Assembly: GCA_001600815.1 (NCBI GenBank)
Contig: BCKZ01000005.1
Location: forward strand, 681,727-745,726
Direction of reading: 5' to 3'
Source: Alloascoidea hylecoeti
Lineage: Eukaryota
DNA length: 64,000 nucleotides
Below the pieces are notes generated by a model. It did no database searches and was not told where the DNA came from. It worked only from the letters and a program-made list of their open reading frames with translations. The position numbers were made by a program, and so were the translations under genes. Numbering within the stretch: position 1 is the first letter of the stretch; each line of letters starts with the position of its first letter. Of this stretch, positions 30,485-42,770 are shown piece by piece.

Positions 30485-33400
30485 TTAGGTATAAACTCTA
30501 AAATTTGAAAAAGATCCTTCTTCTATCGCGTCTTTTAGATCTTCGCTATTATTAACAATCTTATCAGCATTATTACTCGTACTAGCAATATCTTGTATTT
30601 TTAAACCTAAATCAATCAAACCTCCTGTTAATTCATCGTCATTATTATTATAATTCTTCTTTTGCAATTGTTTCTTTAAAACTTCTGTACCTGAATCATT
30701 AACTTTACATAAATAAATATCAAAAGCAATTGATTTCCCACATATCAGATTTTTGATTGGATTAACTAATAAAGATAACTTCAATTCATTACTTTTTGTA
30801 ATTTTTTGATAATTAATTGGTAGTAATATAAAATTATTATGATTTAAATATTTTATTTTAAATTTTAAATCTTCAAATGATTCAAAGTTAGTCATATTAT
30901 TATTAAATAATTGTTCTAAATCATTGATTGTTAAACTTTCAATACAATCTTCCAATAAAATAGAATTATAATAACCAAATAATTCATTATCAGTTGAAAC
31001 AGGTTGTAATTGTGATTGTTCTTGTGGTTGACTATTATTATGAATTGAATTATCTTTTAATAAAGATTTCGTTTTTAAGGCCTCAGATACCGTCATCTCT
31101 GGAACTTTAACCAAAGGACTATAGTAAACTGTAACACTTCTATTTGGTTCCATATCTTCAGAGACTGATTTTAATGAAAATGCTTCCGATAACATATGAA
31201 TGAACGCTCTTTGTTCTCCCTTCATTGGTGGAAATCTTATGACTTGTTTAATACTATTATCATGAGTGATCTCGACAAAAGCTCTTAATTTTGATTCAAT
31301 TCCTAAACTCCATTCTTTATTTCTTATAAAATAGGAAAGTAATTGAAAGCTATATCTATTTGTAATATCAATTGCCGTTGTTGTTATCGCTGCTGAATTT
31401 GCTGATGCTGTTGAGTCAGATGTATTATCACCAATTTGCAATGCATTTAAAAGATTTCTATTCCTTGCAAGTCTTAAACATTCACCATTACATGGTAAAG
31501 TCTTAGTGTTTGTTGATGGTGATGTTGAACTATATCCACACACATAATTTTTAGATATATTCCCGCAATCACATGTAATGGTAACAATTGATTGACATGG
31601 TTTTGATTCATTACATTTAAATGGAGAATGACATAAATTTGAACACGGATGTCCACATTTTTTAATCTTCCCACATTTGAATGGACATTTCTTCAAACAT
31701 TCATTTGGTAAATGACATACTTTATTACAAGTATGTGAACCACAACTTGATAATAATTTCCCACAAATTTGTCCACATGAAACATTTTTCTGTGAACATG
31801 GAGCTTTGAATGTTTTTTTAGAACACATACATTTTTTGGAAACTAAAGTCCCACATGGTGGACATTTCACATCATCAGGATGACATAAATGACTAACTTG
31901 ATTATGACCACAACTTAAAGATCTTGTACATGGGTATTTGCATTGTGGTAAAATTGTACCACATCTAACAGGGGCAGGGACCATTGTTTTACCACACGAA
32001 CATATTAAATCCTCAGAAGATGATATAAGACATGGATTACAAGGACCACTATGACAAGTCATTTCACATCTATGAATACCACATTTTAATAATTTCCCAC
32101 ATGTTTTTGTACAAATATGAACAGCTTCAATTGTCATTTGAAGATCATTATTGTTATTAATAAATGTTTTAGATCTTTGTGCACGTTTCCTAGCTCGTTC
32201 TCGCTCTTTTGAAATAGGTTCAGATTCACAACATATTTTACCACATCTATGTCTTCGACAATTCAATAATGCATCACATTTATGGGTACATTCTGGCGTT
32301 AGGCCATCTTTTATAAATTTGCAAGGGACTAAATACGATGTATTTTGACAAGAACATTTTCTTTTCAAAATTTCATGGCATGGATCACAAGGACCATCAT
32401 GACATTTATGAGGACACTTATGGCCACATGGTAATGGTTTACCACAAACTTCATGACATGTTGGTACTGGCTCTGTACATTTTAATCTTTCTTTCTTTAA
32501 TAATATAGAGATTTTTGTTTTACCACATGGGCAAAATTTAATATTTTTGGGACTTCTTGGACATGAATGGATTGGTAATTTCGATTGATTCTTAGATATA
32601 TAATGACACCTGAGTTGACATTTATGAAGACCACAATCAAATAATTCATTACAAATTTCACCACATGAATAAGATCCTATCCATTCTTTTAAGCCTGTAG
32701 TTGTATTGGGATTTGTTATTAATTTAGGGTTCCTTTCGTAACACGCTATAATCTTTTTGTGTTTCCCACAATAACAAGTTTCTTCAGATTTTTCTAAACA
32801 TTTACCACATAACCCATCATGACATTGTTTACCACATAGATGTTTACCACATGGCATTAATTCATTACATAACTTATCGCATTGCCAACCTTTATATGGT
32901 GTTATTATACATGGCCACTGCTGTTTTGAAGCGCCACATTTACAGCTCAAAACAGGACCTAAAGCAGTACATTGAGCATGAGGACCAGGGTGACATTGTA
33001 ATGAACAACCGTGAACACAATCATCAAGTGGATGGTTGCAAGTTTGCCCACAACTATGTGGTGAAAAAACATTACCTGAAGGGTGTAAAACTTTACCACA
33101 CCAACATCTGTATTGTGAAGGTACCTCAACTGTATCTATATTACAAGAAGGACATCTCCACGAGTCTATGTTTGTATTTTTGTTTGACCCTGTATTTGAT
33201 GACGCTAAACTTTTCAAAGCCCATTGCTTAATACATTTTAAATGATATACTCGATAACATTTTTTACAATTCCAAACATGGGAATCAGAGTCAACTTCAC
33301 TTGTGCAGACCAAACAAGTATAAGTCCCATCGATAATTTCCTTTTTGATACTATCACCAAGAGTATCATAATCAGAAACATCACTATTTGAGTCCGAATC

Positions 33401-33517
33401 ATCATTATCTAAATACTCATCATTATGATTGTGTAAATGGGTTAACTGATCATGAACATTGATATCACTAACCAGATCTGACGTCTCGTGAACTTCACTG
33501 ACAATAAACTCGGGCAT
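30485..33517 (-). CDS. FAP1: NF-X1-type zinc-finger RING/R3H protein
   Basis: RING/PHD (CLVC...HLKCIKQWA...WRCPSC), multiple NF-X1 repeats, and an R3H domain (FPPMKGEQRAFIHMLSE). Confidence 0.93.
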   Translation of the reverse strand: MPEFIVSEVHETSDLVSDINVHDQLTHLHNHNDEYLDNDDSDSNSDVSDYDTLGDSIKKEIIDGTYTCLVCTSEVDSDSHVWNCKKCYRVYHLKCIKQWALKSLASSNTGSNKNTNIDSWRCPSCNIDTVEVPSQYRCWCGKVLHPSGNVFSPHSCGQTCNHPLDDCVHGCSLQCHPGPHAQCTALGPVLSCKCGASKQQWPCIITPYKGWQCDKLCNELMPCGKHLCGKQCHDGLCGKCLEKSEETCYCGKHKKIIACYERNPKLITNPNTTTGLKEWIGSYSCGEICNELFDCGLHKCQLRCHYISKNQSKLPIHSCPRSPKNIKFCPCGKTKISILLKKERLKCTEPVPTCHEVCGKPLPCGHKCPHKCHDGPCDPCHEILKRKCSCQNTSYLVPCKFIKDGLTPECTHKCDALLNCRRHRCGKICCESEPISKERERARKRAQRSKTFINNNNDLQMTIEAVHICTKTCGKLLKCGIHRCEMTCHSGPCNPCLISSSEDLICSCGKTMVPAPVRCGTILPQCKYPCTRSLSCGHNQVSHLCHPDDVKCPPCGTLVSKKCMCSKKTFKAPCSQKNVSCGQICGKLLSSCGSHTCNKVCHLPNECLKKCPFKCGKIKKCGHPCSNLCHSPFKCNESKPCQSIVTITCDCGNISKNYVCGYSSTSPSTNTKTLPCNGECLRLARNRNLLNALQIGDNTSDSTASANSAAITTTAIDITNRYSFQLLSYFIRNKEWSLGIESKLRAFVEITHDNSIKQVIRFPPMKGEQRAFIHMLSEAFSLKSVSEDMEPNRSVTVYYSPLVKVPEMTVSEALKTKSLLKDNSIHNNSQPQEQSQLQPVSTDNELFGYYNSILLEDCIESLTINDLEQLFNNNMTNFESFEDLKFKIKYLNHNNFILLPINYQKITKSNELKLSLLVNPIKNLICGKSIAFDIYLCKVNDSGTEVLKKQLQKKNYNNNDDELTGGLIDLGLKIQDIASTSNNADKIVNNSEDLKDAIEEGSFSNFRVYT

Positions 33518-33924
33518 ATACCGCTTTATTCGCTTATTTTAGTTTAATAGGTTTTAAGATAAAAGAAGGGGTACCTGTGTTTATATATATATTTTTAATA
33601 TTTTTTTTGTTTAAAGATTTGATTATACTTTTTTATTCTTACCAAAAAGAGATATTTGTTTGAGTAATACTCATCACATGACTGAGGCAGAAAAAGAAAC
33701 TGCTTTGGCACAGTACATATATGGTGAAATTGGCATATGAGTAGTAGTGATTTTCTATACTCATAACTATAGCTTATTTTGGTAAAATCAAATTTGAAAT
33801 GAAATCTTATGTTAAACTGTCACCCTAACATAAATTTAACCTTATAACAATACTTAGTAAACATGAGTTCAATTCTGTGCGTAGGACAAATTTATACAGC
33901 CAATAGATATACAAAATAAATGGT

Positions 33925-34633
33925 GATCATGATATTAGTTTCAGTTGAAATTTCTTTATAATTAAGCAACGTTTATTTTCAATTTTCAATAAATTATAAT
34001 GTTTTAACTATTTTTTCCTCAAATCTTTAATATAATCATAAATAATAGGATCAGCATCCCAAGTAAGAGCAGTCATCTTTTTGGAATCAGCATCAATTAT
34101 CCACAACTAATTCCAAATCCAAATAGTACAATCATTATCAACACAAATGATTTTATTATCAACTATAAATAATTCAATTGAATCTCCAAATCCTTCATAA
34201 TCTAGTATAATATTTATTAATTCATTTGACTGTACATCTCAAACTGTTATTTGGTTGTCGTAAATGGTAGCAAATAAGTTTTGATCCTTCACTGTCATGA
34301 CCCCTAGTTGATCATCTGGAAATCCTTGGATCATTTGACTAGTTTCAATATTCCAGGATTTTAATTCACTAAATATTCGACAATTATATATAATATCATT
34401 ATGAATGAAAATATAACACCAAAATCAGTCTCTGAATCATCATTATAGTATTTCCGATATTTTTGACCCTTAAATTTTGATTTCCATATATCATCATATT
34501 CAGCTGTTTGCTTTCATGATTTAGATACTTCTCTACAATCAAGTAAAGATTTTTGTGATAATTGTCTGAAGATTAAATTATTTATTTCATATGGGAAATA
34601 ATCAACAAAATCGATTCTAGTCTCAATATTCAT
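33925..34633 (-). pseudogene. F-box/WD40 pseudogene copy A, internally deleted, with a putative 5'-leader intron at 34657-34722
   Basis: F-box MNIETRIDFVDYFPYEINNLIFRQLSQKSLLDCREVSKS*KQTAEYDDIWKSKF with a TGG>TGA stop. It then jumps to late WD repeats (LKSWNIETSQMIQ). Homologous to copy B, including the 3' flank. Confidence 0.85.
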
Positions 34634-34914
34634 TGTTGATTGGTAAAAGAATTCCGCTTTTAATGTATAATGAGTAGTTAGCTAATCTTTTTACTCGTAG
34701 AAGTTACGTGAAGTGGGCTTACTTCTCTTTTTATAAAAAAAATTCCAGAGTCATCTTAACATCACTCTTTAGTCTTGACTCTTCAGTGTCTCCAAGTTGA
34801 CAACATTTTTGAAACCTTAACGTTAACGTCTTAATCGTAACCTTCCATGCTAGACTGGGATATACTAGTGCTGGCTTCTACGCATGTTCTCAGTTATACG
34901 GGATTTGATGAAGA

Positions 34915-35325
34915 TCTTCAATCACATTTTCAAAATTTAATTGTAATTGATTCTCAATATCACTTTTCTCATCATCTTTATCATCTTAAAGTTCTTCACC
35001 TGCAAAATGACCATAAACACTTAAATTCAACAAAATTTCTTTTTAAAAATAAATTTAAAAAAGGGGTCATAATCATTTTGATTATCTTGATTATTTTTAA
35101 TCGGATTAAAATTTGTTTGTAATGGTAATTGATCATTATTAATTGCTTTTTGTATTAAAAAACTTCTTCTAAAACTACCAGATACACGAATACTTGAAAT
35201 ACTATCTCTTTTAACATAATTTTCTAGATTTGAAAATGAATGAGTTCTTGATCTTTTTTTCTTCTTCTTTTGATTATTATTACTTGAAAATTCATCACTT
35301 CCAATTGTTGAAGAAGAACCATTAA
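34915..35325 (-). pseudogene. Fragment of a vacuolar amino-acid transporter of the AVT3/AVT4 type (cytosolic N-terminal region)
   Basis: RSRTHSFSN..SIRVSGSFRRSFL and NFVEF-SVYGHFAGEEL*DDKDD match the Avt3/4 motifs GGFRR.. and FLSLYGHFAGE. Frameshifted. Confidence 0.75.
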
Positions 35326-35327
35326 TA

Positions 35328-35453
35328 TATGTGTTTTTGCCTCATAATCTTTCAGTTCTGCATCCAATGGTGTTTTAAGTGATGGAATCTTGAATTTTTT
35401 CTTCGAAATACCATTAGATGCAGAACTGAAAGATTATGAAGCAAAAACACATA
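35328..35453. repeat. Inverted repeat with 48-bp arms (35328-35375 and 35406-35453, 45/48 identical) and a 30-bp spacer
   Basis: TATGTGTTTTTGCCTCATAATCTTTCAGTTCTGCATCCAATGGTGTTT matches the reverse complement of AAATACCATTAGATGCAGAACTGAAAGATTATGAAGCAAAAACACATA. Confidence 0.95.
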
Positions 35454-36388
35454 ATAAATGAATTTAAATATAAGGAACTACCAATTAATTATAAAGTTAT
35501 AAGAGATCATAAAAGCGGAGTTTTTTTAATATTCACACTAGAGGAAGAAGTGAAAGAAAAATTACAACATATTGCGAATTGGTTAGAGAAACCGGTCGAA
35601 GAAACCATCATTGCTGAAAATGAATCTCGAGATAAGACGAAAGATTATTATTTTTTATGGTATGAGGAATTTGAAAATGTAGACACCAAACGGGATATGG
35701 ATTTAAGGATAATATTCAGCTCTTTCCAAGAAACAGAACGGATTCAGCTTTCCAAGCTTCCTGAGGAACGTTATCATTCACAGGTACTGCGTTGTTCATC
35801 ATAGCAGTGTTATGAGGCGACTCATAGCAATAGCTTTAACCTTATAAACGGACGTGAATATATTATTAAGTGGATTGACCCGGTCCTTGCTGTTCGTAAC
35901 AACAAAATATTGATTAAGTTGAGTAAATTTTGTTCCTATTATTACAAAGATGAACTGAAAATCTTACTTGGTATTATCAAAAAACAAATTTAGAGAGCAT
36001 AGTGCCTAAGCTTCATGGAATAGGGTTTTGTACCTTAGTTGGTGATAATGATGAAAGCTTTAGTGCAAGATTATTCCTGTTACTAGATCACATTGATGGT
36101 AAGGAACCTGATTTTTCAGATGATAAAATACACGAAAAGGCAGTCAAATTTGAAAAAGTTACACGATGCCGACATAACTCATGGACGTGTACTTTTTTTG
36201 ATTTTGGTTTAAGTAGCACAGCTAAACGGAATAAAACAAGAACTACTGATATCCAAAGGAAAAGGGATGAGGAAAAATTAAACGAACTAAGGGAAAAAGC
36301 ATTATTAAGAACAAAAGAATCAGCAGCAGCAGCAATAACAGAAGAAAGGGAAGAAGCAATGGGAGAGAAAGGAGAAAAAAAAGGTTAA
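35406..36388 (+). pseudogene. Decayed atypical (Bud32/Kdo/RIO-like, fungal) protein-kinase-fold gene
   Basis: Across frameshifts: YIIKWID, YKDELKIL, IVPKLHG, FLLLDHIDG, LKKLHDADITHG-RVL and DFGLS. In-frame stop at 35802; catalytic-loop Asp/Asn missing. Confidence 0.7.
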
Positions 36389-36960
36389 ATCCATTACCAC
36401 AATCTTTTCTTATGGTTTCACTTTATTTTTTATTTTATGAATATTATATTATACCTTATATAAATTATAGGTTATAATCTATAAACTTAATGGCTGGTTT
36501 AATTGCAACTTCAAAAATCATTTTAAAACATAAAAAATATACCAAGTTCAAACTGATAAAAAGAACTTGAAATACCAAAGAAAAACACGAACTATTACTT
36601 TTGATATACCCAATAAACAATGAAAAGAAAATGATGATGAAAAATCAAATTTTAAAATGTAAGACTAAGAAGAAACTATTAGTTGACTAGACTTATTTTA
36701 TTAACTATTACGCCTGCCTTGATTGAGAGAATAACATTGAGTATCTATAGTAAAAGAACTATTGTTTATTCTAGTTTGGGGTTAACGTGTGTTAGTATAA
36801 AAAAGGCATCTACAGTTTCTTTCATTGGTTGAGAAGCGCTATTTCAGCCAGGTTCTTTTCCTTTTTCCTTTCTAATTATATTTACCTGGAGTACCGACAT
36901 AGTGACGACCTCGGAGAGGACCCTTTGGACTTTTTGTTTAAATTCGTGTTACTTGCGATC

Positions 36961-38125
36961 CCAAAGTTTCAAGATGAAAAATATAGGAAATACTATAATG
37001 ATGATTCAGAAACCGATTCATGGTACGCATTATATAAAGAACGTTAACGTTATCTTTTAGATTTAAATTAGAAAAATTATAAATATACAAGCCATAAATT
37101 AATTGGTCATTCTGACGAAAACAATTTATATTAAACTTTTTAAAAACTGGATTTTAACTGGTTCACTAAGAATTTGGGATAATGAAACTTTTCAGTGTTT
37201 AAGAGTATTAAGAGAACCAAATCTAAGAGGAAATTTATTAGGTATGTACCGTATGAAAATATTGGAATTAATAAATAATCTTAATAAAGAATCTCGTGTG
37301 GGTGCTGTTGGTATTGATATTAATGATAAATATTTGGTTTCTGGTTCATTTGATGATTCTTGTATAATTTGGAATTTACCAGATTTTAAACCAATATATC
37401 GTCTGATGATACCAACAGAAAATCGGTTTCCTTCAATCATAAAAGGTGTCGTCTTATACAATGATTATACTGTATGTTCTAGTGTTGATTATGTTGGGGT
37501 TTGGAAATCAAGTCTTGATAATTTAGAACATCAACTGCAGTTTCATTTTCAACTCCGTTTAGAGGGAGGGAAGGCATTACTGGTATTTGCGTTCATAATG
37601 GTATTATATATACTAGAGAAGATCATGCTATAAGATCTTGGAATATTGAAACTGGTCAAATAATCCAAGAATTTCAATACTATCAACTAGGACCCATTAT
37701 AGTAAAGGATCAGTACTTATTTGTTAGTGACTATGACAGACTAACAGTTCAAGATTTTCAATTAAATACATTAATAGATACTGTATCAAATGACATATCA
37801 AATGAAAGACCACCTCACCTCAATTATGTATGACAGATAATAAACTCATTTCTGCTAATAGTGCTTGTACTATTAAGATTTGAAATTTAAATAATCTGAA
37901 ATTATTCAAAGAATTTATAAATTTAGAACATGAAAAATTAAATTTAAGATCTTATTTAATTGGTGCTTATTCGAAAAGACAGGCTGCTTTTACTATGGAT
38001 GGTGATGTTTATGATTTTACTAAAAAAATTTAAGGAAAAAGTATTTAAAATATTTATAATCTATTGAAAATTGAAAATAAACATTTTTACTTAAAGAAAT
38101 TTCGATTGAACTAATCATTGTAACC
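36961..38125 (+). pseudogene. F-box/WD40 pseudogene copy B, with the F-box 5' part missing
   Basis: KFQDEKYRKYYNDDSETDSWYALYKER, KLIGHSD, FKNWILTGS-LRIWDNETFQCLRVL, KYLVSGSFDDSCIIWNL and IRSWNIETGQIIQEF, with many stops and frameshifts. Confidence 0.85.
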
Positions 38126-40721: not shown

Positions 40722-41573
40722 CTATATGGTTGCAATGGGTTTGCCACGGCCAGGGATTGATAATAATTCCGGATAATCCTTATATAAACATTTTCTAGCA
40801 CCTCTCCAAATTTTCTCTAATCTAGCTCTTCTTGGTAAGAAGTTCTTCAATAAAAAAAGAAAATAAAATTATGTTAGTTCAAGCACAAATACATATAAAT
40901 GTAACACAATAAACTTACTGGAAAAACAAGAGTTACTTTTTTATCATCCTTAACCAGTATACCCATATAATAAATAACTTGCAAACCAATAAACCCTTCA
41001 TTTATAATAATATCAATGATTTTATTCATCGGAATAAACCGTATTTTGGAGAAACAATAATATGATGATGATGTTGTAACTTGAACACCAAATGATTGTA
41101 TAACCATCAATGAATCATCTATTAATATCGTTAGTCAAACAAGCCCAACAAATTATAAAAAAGAGAATAGTAATAAAAAACATACATCTGTATAATCTTT
41201 TTATTGAAAACCAAAGGACAAATAAAGACCAAAGAAAAATCCAGAAACACGATAAAGTTGAAACTTTTTGAAATATTGAATTAATGAATTTAATATTTAT
41301 ATAAATATTTGTGTTTGTGTTCAGTATCGTTAGTTGATTAATTAGATCTGATACTCTAGCAATATACCTTAAATATATAGTTAATATTGTAAATGATATC
41401 AATACCAGTTTAATTATATTAAATATTATTAATTTTATATCAAAACTCCATAATGAATTATAATGTGTTTGGTTTTTCAAACATTTTGAAGATGAAGTTC
41501 GTATTCGTCTATTTGTTATTGTGTATTTGATTGTATCACTGTTTAACTTTTCAATTATAAGAGTGTCTGGCAT
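40722..41573 (-). CDS. GPI15: GPI-GlcNAc transferase subunit PIG-H/Gpi15. Introns 41119-41185 and 40845-40918.
   Basis: Two transmembrane segments, then YDSLMVIQSFGVQV..RFIP..IIDIIINEGF..VIYYM..LVFP|NFLPRRARLEKIWRGARKCL. Confidence 0.9.
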
Positions 41574-42554
41574 TATTATTTGATCATTAAATTTGATAAT
41601 TAAATTTGATGTTTTATTCTGTTAAAATAAAATAAGTTTGGAAAGAAATGAAAACCAAAGGTCACGTGGTATTACTTTTAACAAACCAAACTTGTCTAGG
41701 ATCTGGAAAATATATAAAACTTTAGAATTATAGCTGTTATTATTATTTCGTGCTCGTTCTAATGATATAATATGGGGTGTAGACAAGAGTCTATCAAAGT
41801 GTGTCACATCCTTTACTTAAATCAATTGGAACTATGTATAATTAGATCTGATTACATCCACCAAAGACCCCAATAACATAAAAAAATAGAGTATTCTTTA
41901 AACCCATACCGGAATGAGCGAAAGATCTTTGATCGAACAAAAGCTGTTAAGTACTTATTTTCAAAATATGATATCAATCTCTTCGTTGATGACATAAAAA
42001 TGCCATAAACATGGCATATCTGAGAACAGGTGTAGATTATATCACATGATAGCAGAAGATTACCCTGATACACTAGTATTTAAATTCAAATATTGCACCA
42101 GTACTCGACCTACTGGTAATTTGCTTGATAAAATGACTTTACATTCATAATACCAAATGATGATCATGTTTAATTATTATATATATTCAATTATATCATA
42201 TTGTCATATTATTTTGAGTGAGGACTGTATTTTTTTCATTCCAATAGCGTTGCAAACAATAATTCCAACGTAATGGAGAAAGATCTATGCTTCTTAAATC
42301 TTTGATATAATTGCATATGAATATAAGTCTAAAAGGTTAAATTTCTGATGGTTTCTATTCCTACATTGCAACTACAACTTTATGTCCAATACTTTGCTTA
42401 TAATATGAGATGACTTTTTTTAACTGATGGAAATTAAAAATTAAAACTGTTGAATAATATATGCTTCAAAATTCTAATGTAACCCTAAAATTGATCCCAC
42501 GGCTGTAATAAAATAAGAACATAGTTTTGCAAAATTGTTCCTTATACCTTCTCC

Positions 42555-42770
42555 TGATAATATATGGAGATCAAAGTTTCGACATCAAAAATTCCGGAAA
42601 TACTTTATTTATGTCTCAGATACCCACTAAAGGTGTGACCTATAAAGAGCGTTATATTTTAGGGCTGAATTGGAAAAATGGTAGATATTACAGGTAATAA
42701 ATTAAGTGGCAAAACATTTTGTGTTAAATTTTTTAAAAACTGGGTTTTAACTGGTTCAACGGATTAATGT
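42555..42770 (+). pseudogene. F-box/WD40 pseudogene fragment, copy C
   Basis: DNIWRSKFRHQKFRKYF..YKERYILGLNWKNG..FCVKFFKNWVLTGSTD aligns by eye with copies A and B. Confidence 0.8.

What the first reader, a model, noticed from the sequence alone, without database searches (positions are those of the whole stretch)
33925..38125. Island of inverted F-box/WD40 paralogues enclosing an atypical kinase: relic of a possible F-box plus kinase selfish or effector module
Seen: between FAP1 and the GPI15 region lie F-box/WD40 copy A (-) and copy B (+), pointing outward. They share KYYNDDSETD, SWNIET.Q.IQ and about 60 bp of 3' flank (ATTGAAAATTGAAAATAAAC...AAAGAAATTTC), but are clearly diverged. Between them are a kinase-fold gene, the start of a second inverted kinase-like copy and a host-gene fragment. 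The F-box proteins are compact and lack the long N-termini of Cdc4/Met30. All parts are broken. Known: F-box proteins direct SCF degradation, often of phosphorylated substrates; fungal Spok drivers carry a kinase-like domain; F-box antidotes are reported in nematode toxin-antidote elements. Inference (speculative): a lineage-specific, multi-copy, fast-turnover kinase plus F-box system acting in toxin-antidote, drive or defence. I know of no such system described in budding yeasts.
Basis: partly seen in the sequence, partly recalled or inferred. Interest (0 to 1): 0.78.

Follow-up and report, generated by a model that had tools for sequence, protein, structure and literature searches.

The report
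Dead yeast nuclease-kinase among F-box relics
The stretch is a pile of unrelated dead gene copies, not an F-box-plus-kinase module, but its "kinase" is the broken back half of a multi-copy yeast gene that joins a DNA-cutting domain to a kinase, built like fungal spore-killer genes and apparently moving around the genome with scraps of neighbouring genes.

Summary
The broken parts are real; the module is not supported. F-box copies A and B are not an inverted pair (monophyly rejected, p-AU 0.00014). They are two of at least 168 loci of a beta-TrCP/Pof11-like family that this scan already reported elsewhere in this genome. The "second kinase" is a 48-nt fold-back. Excluding the window, 5 of 58 kinase-family loci have an F-box piece within 1 kb (1.4-2.7 expected; p 0.012-0.14); no pair is intact on both sides.

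New: the kinase is the C-terminal half of a ~650-aa protein with a PD-(D/E)XK restriction-nuclease fold plus a RIO/Bud32-like kinase, the Spok / Crinkler REase-kinase layout. The family has 59 loci here, at least 8 full-length, and relatives in Debaryomyces, Scheffersomyces and Priceomyces. Young copies diversify just before the nuclease core (pN/pS 1.8) while the kinase is constrained (0.5). Copies carry pieces of host genes (PDS5, SMC4, RIM13, Lon, and here an amino-acid transporter), as mobile WHO10 endonuclease genes do. Best reading: a self-protecting selfish nuclease gene whose dead copy landed in a gene graveyard. Toxicity, drive and expression are untested. My paper searches found no description in budding yeasts.

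The parts
33934..34638 (-). F-box/WD40 pseudogene A: F-box and linker (residues 1-70) joined to the last WD40 repeats (268-433) by an internal deletion, with stops; plus 3' flank. Sister of the intact copies at G000:C5:624k and C3:560k, not of copy B
   Evidence: tree 100/100 with those two copies, 83% identity, 74% to B
34914..35328 (-). Captured internal piece of an AVT-type amino-acid transporter gene; the intact source (G000:C11:227958-228376) lies about 600 nt from N-terminal relics of the same nuclease-kinase subfamily
   Evidence: 92% over 419 nt; Pfam Aa_trans on the source; relics at C11:228961-229528
35328..35375 (-). 48-nt fold-back copy of 35406-35453 (hairpin at the truncation point); not a second gene
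   Evidence: 94% complementary, 30-nt loop; closer to its neighbour than to intact copies; Rfam gives only sub-threshold miRNA-hairpin matches
35368..36658 (+). Pseudogene of the nuclease-kinase family (subfamily K0): codons 280-647 plus about 270 nt of family 3' flank. Nuclease catalytic core absent, kinase catalytic loop deleted, 12 indels and 1 in-frame stop
   Evidence: 78-85% DNA identity to five near-identical copies elsewhere; lesions
36962..38115 (+). F-box/WD40 pseudogene B, 5'-truncated (no F-box), frameshifted, plus 3' flank
   Evidence: best match 78% to G000:C4:431k
42544..42764 (+). Third F-box/WD40 fragment (residues ~47-123), beyond GPI15
30485..33538 (-). Left flank: intact FAP1-like gene
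   Evidence: 1017-aa open frame; Pfam zf-NF-X1 and R3H
40874..41134 (-). Right flank: GPI15 / PIG-H coding piece
   Evidence: Pfam PIG-H E 4e-23

Best explanation
The island is a graveyard made by three independent arrivals in one intergenic space: two dead copies of an expanded beta-TrCP/Pof11-like F-box family, and one dead piece of a nuclease-kinase gene. That piece came with a scrap of the transporter gene beside which an earlier copy sat (independence shown by tree and source locus; order of events inferred). The living form of the middle gene is one ~650-aa protein: helical N-terminus, disordered linker, PD-(D/E)XK nuclease of the type I/IIG restriction-enzyme kind, RIO/Bud32-like kinase and, in 4 of 5 subfamilies, a basic tail like a nuclear signal (folds predicted; activities not shown). 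Most likely mechanism, inferred by analogy with Spok: the nuclease damages DNA, the kinase of the same protein holds it in check, and cells or spores that receive the protein without a matching gene are harmed. New copies at new sites would then be favoured, and so would changes in the specificity region before the nuclease core. Copies move as DNA segments without fixed ends, dragging flanking gene pieces. The F-box genes are bystanders. Odds: graveyard without a cis module about 85%; nuclease plus kinase architecture about 95%; selfish rather than host-serving about 60%; Spok-type poison-antidote specifically about 40%.
For: Independence: A+B monophyly rejected, p-AU 0.00014; co-location weak and without intact pairs; Ty3 relics lie near F-box copies at a similar rate, 1 of 13 within 5 kb. 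Architecture: model pLDDT 84, pTM 0.78; kinase half matches Rio2, Z 13.9, rmsd 4.2, 176 aligned; N-half matches BpuSI (Z 11.0, rmsd 3.0, 145 aligned), DrdV (10.6) and HsdR 3h1t (9.0). Vibrio vulnificus HsdR is also the best HHPred hit reported for SPOK3 (PMC6660238). E174, E240, K242, G281, D285, K459, E487, H564, D566, N571 and D584 are kept in at least 90% of 31 aligned proteins. Atlas feature neighbours of the Debaryomyces relative include SPOK2_N and Crinkler clusters at 0.93. Birth and death: 59 loci, at least 8 full-length; the collapsed K0 contig is 8-9 times as deep as single-copy flank in all four runs (rough). Selection among young copies: 172 replacement: 26 silent in residues ~110-225 (pN/pS 1.79, p 0.002) against 43:22 in the kinase (0.48, p 0.005); contrast with nuclease core plus kinase p 1e-4. 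Carried fragments: 17 of 22 PDS5 pieces in the genome lie within 750 nt of a family member, all antisense; also RIM13, Lon and SMC4 pieces.
Against: No activity, toxicity, spore killing or expression was tested. No sequence-level match to a Spok or Crinkler family: Pfam gives only weak kinase hits, the Spok cysteine cluster is absent in 5 of 5 subfamilies, and the Atlas hit of this genome's own protein is only 0.85 with a low recognition value. The fast-evolving region was chosen after seeing subfamilies K0 and K2; in the other three alone it is 55:12 (ratio about 1.3, my sum, not significant). Gene conversion or assembly duplicates could inflate counts, since contigs C12, C26 and C31 share 98-100% blocks. 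The island is the same in all samples laid, so no presence/absence was seen. A residual excess of F-box neighbours within 1 kb (p 0.012 under the most liberal null) is unexplained.
Confidence: 0.5

Rival explanations
1. WHO-like element: a site-specific nuclease that once homed into the 3' part of PDS5, carrying a replacement 3' end, and later spread to other sites with gene fragments as fossils of earlier hosts, as WHO10 did in Torulaspora globosa. The variable region would then be the DNA-recognition surface.
For: Four subfamilies only ~37-40% alike sit tail-to-tail with PDS5 3' pieces or its terminator; most pieces are 77-94% identical to today's PDS5. PDS5 pieces on the 5' side of K0 and K3 start at codons 1166-1167, and two 3'-side pieces start at 1156, all at the WPGKLQLPGD motif that ends the Pfam PDS5 domain. 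C11 shows a tandem unit. The K1 copy lies between the 3' half of RIM13 and a RIM13 upstream piece. The description of WHO10 insertions matches (PMC7282813 section 12).
Against: No family gene remains at PDS5, only its 3' flank. The shared start rests on two or three independent junctions. The nuclease is PD-(D/E)XK, not LAGLIDADG, and this reading leaves the conserved kinase unexplained. No common end motif or target duplication was found; one junction has a 4-nt overlap. Not exclusive of the best explanation.
Confidence: 0.2
2. One reading: kinase and F-box genes form a linked toxin-antidote or effector module, the F-box sending the kinase (or its substrate) to SCF degradation.
For: Six of 59 family loci (window included) have an F-box piece within 1 kb, five with a same-strand F-box piece. 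Both families turn over fast. F-box antidotes exist in Caenorhabditis (PMC12680543; search listing only).
Against: No intact-intact pair; 8 of 168 F-box loci near a kinase piece; non-homologous spacers; different kinase subfamilies and unrelated F-box clades in the pairs. The excess vanishes when coding DNA is excluded from the null; ORFs cover 45% of the window.
Confidence: 0.08
3. Host-serving family: the nuclease-kinase genes are defence, self/non-self or inter-microbe weapons of the Crinkler type, diversified against viruses, plasmids or competitors.
For: REase+kinase is about one-sixth of Crinkler C-termini (review PMC5289972). A Crinkler cluster is among the Atlas neighbours. Diversifying selection fits an arms race.
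Against: No Crinkler header family is hit by Pfam. Most copies are dead and scattered, with captured flanks rather than in a regulated cluster. The basic tail points to the producer's own nucleus (inference).
Confidence: 0.15
4. Neutral clutter: a rearrangement-prone genome duplicates many genes at random, and the family is not selfish.
For: The genome holds other expanded, decaying families (F-box here; a LAMMER-like kinase pair noted in e1-7784248, unchecked). Ends are random with microhomology.
Against: Long-term constraint between subfamilies (dN/dS 0.21-0.43 where computable, dS near saturation), conserved catalytic residues across yeast genera, and a localised replacement excess.
Confidence: 0.07

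Closest known systems
Spok spore killers of Podospora and relatives (PMC6660238; PMC9972908)
   Same: One protein with an N-terminal domain, an HsdR-like PD-(D/E)XK nuclease and a eukaryote-like atypical kinase; multi-copy, variable location, pseudogenes.
   Different: No C-x3-C-x13-C-x5-H-x7-H cluster; Q-x3-Q/H/M in place of QxxxY; no sequence hit to Spok shown; budding yeast host, whereas the paper's section on close homologues names only Sordariomycetes and one Eurotiomycete; killing untested.
Crinkler/CR proteins with REase+kinase C-termini, e.g. CRN8 (Zhang et al. 2016, seen only through review PMC5289972)
   Same: REase followed by kinase; toxicity expected from the REase and control from the kinase.
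   Different: No Crinkler header detected; no sign of export; found in yeasts of unknown lifestyle.
WHO elements, especially WHO10 of Torulaspora globosa (PMC7282813; bioRxiv 10.64898/2026.08.13.744650)
   Same: Nuclease gene flanked by 3' fragments of one host gene at many unlinked sites, plus fragments of other genes; mix of live and dead copies.
   Different: Different nuclease class, extra kinase, antisense orientation to the host fragment, no live copy at the putative home gene, cutting not shown.
beta-TrCP / FBXW1-11 / Pof11-type F-box/WD40 receptors
   Same: F-box plus WD40; outside this genome the best hits of the least-derived copy are ~30-36% identical fungal proteins, some named FBXW1/11 or Pof11.
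   Different: Expanded to at least 168 loci with short N-termini; already reported by this scan from other pieces of the genome.

Membership tests
Spok | PD-(D/E)XK nuclease domain of HsdR type | tested here: met
   BpuSI Z 11.0, DrdV 10.6, HsdR 3h1t 9.0; E-x-K and G-x-L-x-D conserved. Met in intact paralogues; the core is deleted in the window copy.
Spok | C-terminal eukaryote-like atypical kinase with catalytic Asp | tested here: met
   HGDIR..N and DFG invariant in 8 of 8 own copies aligned; Rio2 Z 13.9
Spok | Cysteine cluster C-x3-C-x13-C-x5-H-x7-H before the kinase | tested here: not met
   absent in the reference copy of 5 of 5 subfamilies, also under a looser pattern
Spok | Detectable homology to Spok proteins | tested here: inconclusive
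   no Pfam Spok hit in the 2025 copy; Atlas feature hits to SPOK2_N clusters 0.85 (own protein) and 0.93 (Debaryomyces relative); no direct comparison with a Spok sequence
Spok | Spore killing, with resistance from the same protein | not testable with these tools
   needs crosses or heterologous expression
Crinkler REase+kinase | REase domain followed by kinase | tested here: met
Crinkler REase+kinase | N-terminal Crinkler header (ubiquitin-like) | tested here: inconclusive
   no Pfam Crinkler hit in 4 own and 23 related proteins; the N-terminus is predicted helical but was not searched alone
WHO elements | LAGLIDADG/intein plus zinc finger endonuclease | tested here: not met
   fold is PD-(D/E)XK plus kinase
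WHO elements | Nuclease gene paired with 3' fragments of a fixed host gene starting near one site | tested here: inconclusive
   PDS5 pieces start at codons 1156 and 1166-1167 in two subfamilies, but only 2-3 independent junctions; other pieces start elsewhere
WHO elements | Cleavage of element-free host alleles | not testable with these tools
   needs an assay
Linked F-box toxin-antidote element (Caenorhabditis type) | Intact toxin and intact F-box antidote tightly linked | tested here: not met
   0 intact-intact pairs; flanks of all 59 family loci read, about 3 kb each side where contig and gaps allowed
Classical transposon (TIR, LTR, Helitron) | Shared element ends or target-site duplications | tested here: not met
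   5' and 3' ends differ between near-identical copies
beta-TrCP/Pof11-like F-box receptors | F-box plus WD40 propeller, closest to FBXW1/11 orthologues | tested here: met
   (intact paralogues; the window copies are dead)

The most novel reading that the evidence does not exclude
Budding yeasts harbour an undescribed family of self-protecting nuclease-kinase selfish genes. They act either as Spok-type spore killers or as mobile site-directed nucleases that began at PDS5. In this genome the family is still multiplying, switching specificity through a hypervariable helical region, and shuffling pieces of cohesin/condensin and other host genes as it moves. The F-box expansion could, at most, be an unlinked host answer.
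Probability: 0.4. Interest if true: 0.85.

Novelty: new variant of a known kind. Interest (0 to 1): 0.6.

Why it matters
The island alone is ordinary debris. The family behind it matters. Spok-type drivers are known from filamentous fungi, and how the kinase blocks the nuclease and how specificity changes are open questions (PMC6660238 discussion, PMC9972908). Here are several subfamilies of near-identical copies whose differences concentrate in one region, with named relatives in Debaryomyces hansenii. That makes both questions testable in yeast genetics. It would also be a second, unrelated case of a nuclease gene moving with host-gene fragments as WHO10 does, whose integration route is unexplained.

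Tried and rejected
- Inverted segmental duplication of one F-box gene: rejected.
- Second kinase copy: rejected.
- Giant ORFs (1,000-3,400 aa) reported around some copies are runs of N.
- LTR or TIR ends: the ~310-nt segment seen before some copies and after others looked like an LTR but is the 3' end of PDS5.
- Word-indexed protein searches found nothing for one copy and one close hit for the profile; the exhaustive profile search gave the relatives.
- Two metagenome scans for loci of distant relatives returned none, so gene neighbourhoods in other yeasts were not seen.
- No RNA holder was listed; this says nothing about expression.
- Foldseek on the whole model returned only kinases; the N-half needed its own model. 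Its top Foldseek rows were mitoribosomal proteins, which I recall share the nuclease fold.
- No tRNA in the window; only sub-threshold hairpin matches in Rfam.
- The first co-location count used 135 F-box loci and missed two close neighbours; it was replaced by direct reading of flanks and 168 loci. Both lists are lower bounds.
- No complex prediction was run.
- Zhang et al. 2016 could not be read, so its taxon lists and supplements may already include yeast members.
Full report
OBSERVATION. The window is G000:C5:681727-745726 of a 24.8-Mb, 136-contig AT-rich genome; its gene content suggests a budding yeast (inference). Between FAP1 (Pfam zf-NF-X1, R3H) and GPI15 (PIG-H) lie F-box/WD40 relic A (-, 34638-33999), a 415-nt transporter fragment, a 48-nt fold-back, a kinase-family relic (+, 35368-36658) and F-box/WD40 relic B (+, 36962-38115). 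A third F-box scrap sits at 42544-42764. A has lost residues 71-267 and B residues 1-52, including the F-box. Four pieces of the island are present with 0-1 differing letters in public contigs from up to three samples, so the decay is biological. Translations used the standard code. The intact nuclease-kinase copies hold 1-7 CTG codons each, so a CUG reassignment would change little.

F-BOX FAMILY. Five searches of the genome plus the local search merge into 168 loci, a lower bound; 31 were counted as intact from open frames of about 415 aa or more. The least-derived copy has a longer N-terminus, and its best outside hits are fungal proteins at 30-36%, some named FBXW1/11 or Pof11. In a tree of 27 3' regions, A groups with two other copies at 100/100 (83% identity) and is 74% identical to B; holding A and B together is rejected (p-AU 0.00014). 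Earlier notes of this scan describe the same family on other pieces; I checked its size and affinity, not their claims about the binding face.

THE KINASE IS HALF OF A NUCLEASE-KINASE. The relic is 78-85% identical to five copies elsewhere. Three protein searches give 62 pieces at 59 loci, at least 8 of them full-length frames of 627-660 aa, in subfamilies 27-39% alike. An exhaustive profile search and look-ups of 20 hits found named full-length relatives in Debaryomyces hansenii (2 proteins), Scheffersomyces amazonensis (5), S. coipomensis (3) and Priceomyces carsonii (1); the rest were unnamed. This genome's copies form their own clade, SH-aLRT 98. The predicted structure (pLDDT 84, pTM 0.78) has a C-terminal kinase closest to Rio2/Rio1 (Z 13.9, 13.4). 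Its N-half is closest to the nuclease domains of BpuSI (Z 11.0), DrdV (10.6) and HsdR (9.0). Catalytic positions of both domains are kept across 31 proteins. This is the layout of Spok (passages and section 19 of PMC6660238) and of Crinkler REase+kinase proteins (passages of review PMC5289972). The Atlas places the Debaryomyces relative near unnamed kinase clusters (0.97) and SPOK2_N and Crinkler clusters (0.93). The Spok cysteine cluster is missing, so I do not file it as a Spok. The window copy starts at codon 280, lacks the nuclease core and the HGD loop, and carries 12 indels and a stop.

IS THERE A MODULE? I read the flanks of all 59 loci. Excluding the window, 5 of 58 have an F-box piece within 1 kb and 7 of 58 within 5 kb. 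Expected are 1.4 and 3.3 for the whole genome (p 0.012, 0.045), or 2.7 and 6.6 if half the genome takes insertions (p 0.14, 0.49). Only 8 of 168 F-box loci have a family piece within 2 kb. One of 31 intact F-box frames has a fragment within 5 kb, one nearly intact kinase copy has an F-box fragment at 0.8 kb, and no pair is intact on both sides. Spacers share nothing beyond gene ends, the family's own 3' flank and short (under 50 nt) matches. Ty3 reverse-transcriptase relics lie within 5 kb of F-box copies in 1 of 13 cases (earlier list). Some loci are probably assembly duplicates, so counts are not fully independent. Shared use of insertion-tolerant intergenic space explains the picture.

HOW THE COPIES MOVE. 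The transporter fragment is 92% identical to an intact gene on C11 that has N-terminal relics of the same subfamily beside it, which names the likely source. Near-identical copies share no ends. Of 22 PDS5 fragments in the genome (25 rows less the gene itself and two rows of flanking SMC4 sequence), 17 lie within 750 nt of a family member, all antisense. Two lie about 4.9 kb away, and three have none listed within 6 kb, their flanks unread. Fragments on the 5' side of subfamilies K0 and K3 start at PDS5 codons 1166-1167, two on the 3' side at 1156, at the end of the conserved domain. PDS5 itself keeps only the family's 3' flank. Other subfamilies carry RIM13/calpain and Lon pieces. Two K0 copies carry 3' parts of SMC4 (name recognised from the sequence, not from a library), one in permuted order with a 4-nt overlap. 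This resembles WHO10 insertions (PMC7282813, passages and section 12; abstract of the 2026 WHO preprint). Read depth suggests 8-9 near-identical K0 copies (the tool warns that depth is no copy number).

SELECTION. Between subfamilies dN/dS is 0.21-0.43 where computable, with dS near saturation. Among 16 young copies compared with five references, residues ~110-225 show 172 replacement to 26 silent changes (pN/pS 1.79, p 0.002), the nuclease core 33:14 (0.60) and the kinase 43:22 (0.48, p 0.005). Without five disrupted copies the figures are 129:18 (1.96, p 0.003) and 18:10. The region was defined after seeing K0 and K2; the other three subfamilies alone give about 1.3.

MECHANISM AND VERDICT. 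Shown: dead island, independent origins, two-domain fold by prediction, family size, carried fragments, uneven divergence. Inferred: a nuclear DNA-damaging toxin restrained by its own kinase, spreading as a selfish gene (Spok-like, about 40%); a WHO-like mobile nuclease (about 20%); a host weapon (about 15%). For Spok1, DNA damage in E. coli and yeast is published (passages of PMC9972908).

LITERATURE. Searches for the Debaryomyces gene names, Spok with Saccharomycotina, yeast restriction-endonuclease/atypical-kinase killers, Crinkler with Saccharomycotina and F-box expansions showed no description of this family in budding yeasts; I saw listings only for those. The original Crinkler survey was not available. 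The scan's own notes returned nothing on it.

Noticed in passing
G000:C12:30731-36218 (L141, L142): Intact PDS5 is followed by the nuclease-kinase 3' flank and then a 96-98% copy of the SMC4 5' part; another SMC4 5' piece is at C15:653494. SMC4 is split over several places in the assembly.
   Followed up: partly
L062:3038-8693 (G000:C12:339-344.7k): Insert of SMC4 middle piece + PDS5 piece + nuclease-kinase + SMC4 3' part in circularly permuted order with a 4-nt overlap at its ends; fits integration of a DNA circle.
   Followed up: partly
G000:C36:70378-73936 (L096): Intact K1 copy between a 98% copy of the RIM13 3' half and an 82-nt piece of RIM13 upstream DNA; the intact RIM13 is 42 kb away.
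   Followed up: partly
G000:C13:124572-126618, C40:29316-31078, C11:229089-229528: Other family relics also hold inverted or fold-back duplications, as the window copy does.
   Followed up: no
G000:C4:146831-148770 and C4:186039-187978: Two 97%-identical inverted copies 37 kb apart, both split at the same two places; a public protein (P0001) reads through the second split, so it may be an allele or a sequencing slip.
   Followed up: no
G000:C12:371739-375493: 3.9-kb, 94% partial duplicate of PDS5 about 5 kb from an intact K0 copy.
   Followed up: partly
G000:C12 / C26:184-191k / C31: Blocks of 98-100% identity in permuted order next to N gaps: recent rearrangement or scaffolding error.
   Followed up: no
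window:34780-34901: Several other contigs match up to 34901 and then diverge, and short matches occur near other F-box copies: perhaps a small repeat or shared promoter motif.
   Followed up: partly
L073:1-2430 (G000:C25:243-245.4k): Three copies, one inverted, of a ~680-nt unit encoding an acidic, Tyr/Asp-rich ~200-aa frame beside a family copy.
   Followed up: no
P0016, P0152 and Scheffersomyces hits: D. hansenii has two relatives with near-consecutive locus names and Scheffersomyces species several divergent ones, so the family is multi-copy in other yeasts too.
   Followed up: partly
window:1-1000: Very low G+C (0.10) at the window start; the window holds 695 N in all, so this may be a gap.
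   Followed up: no
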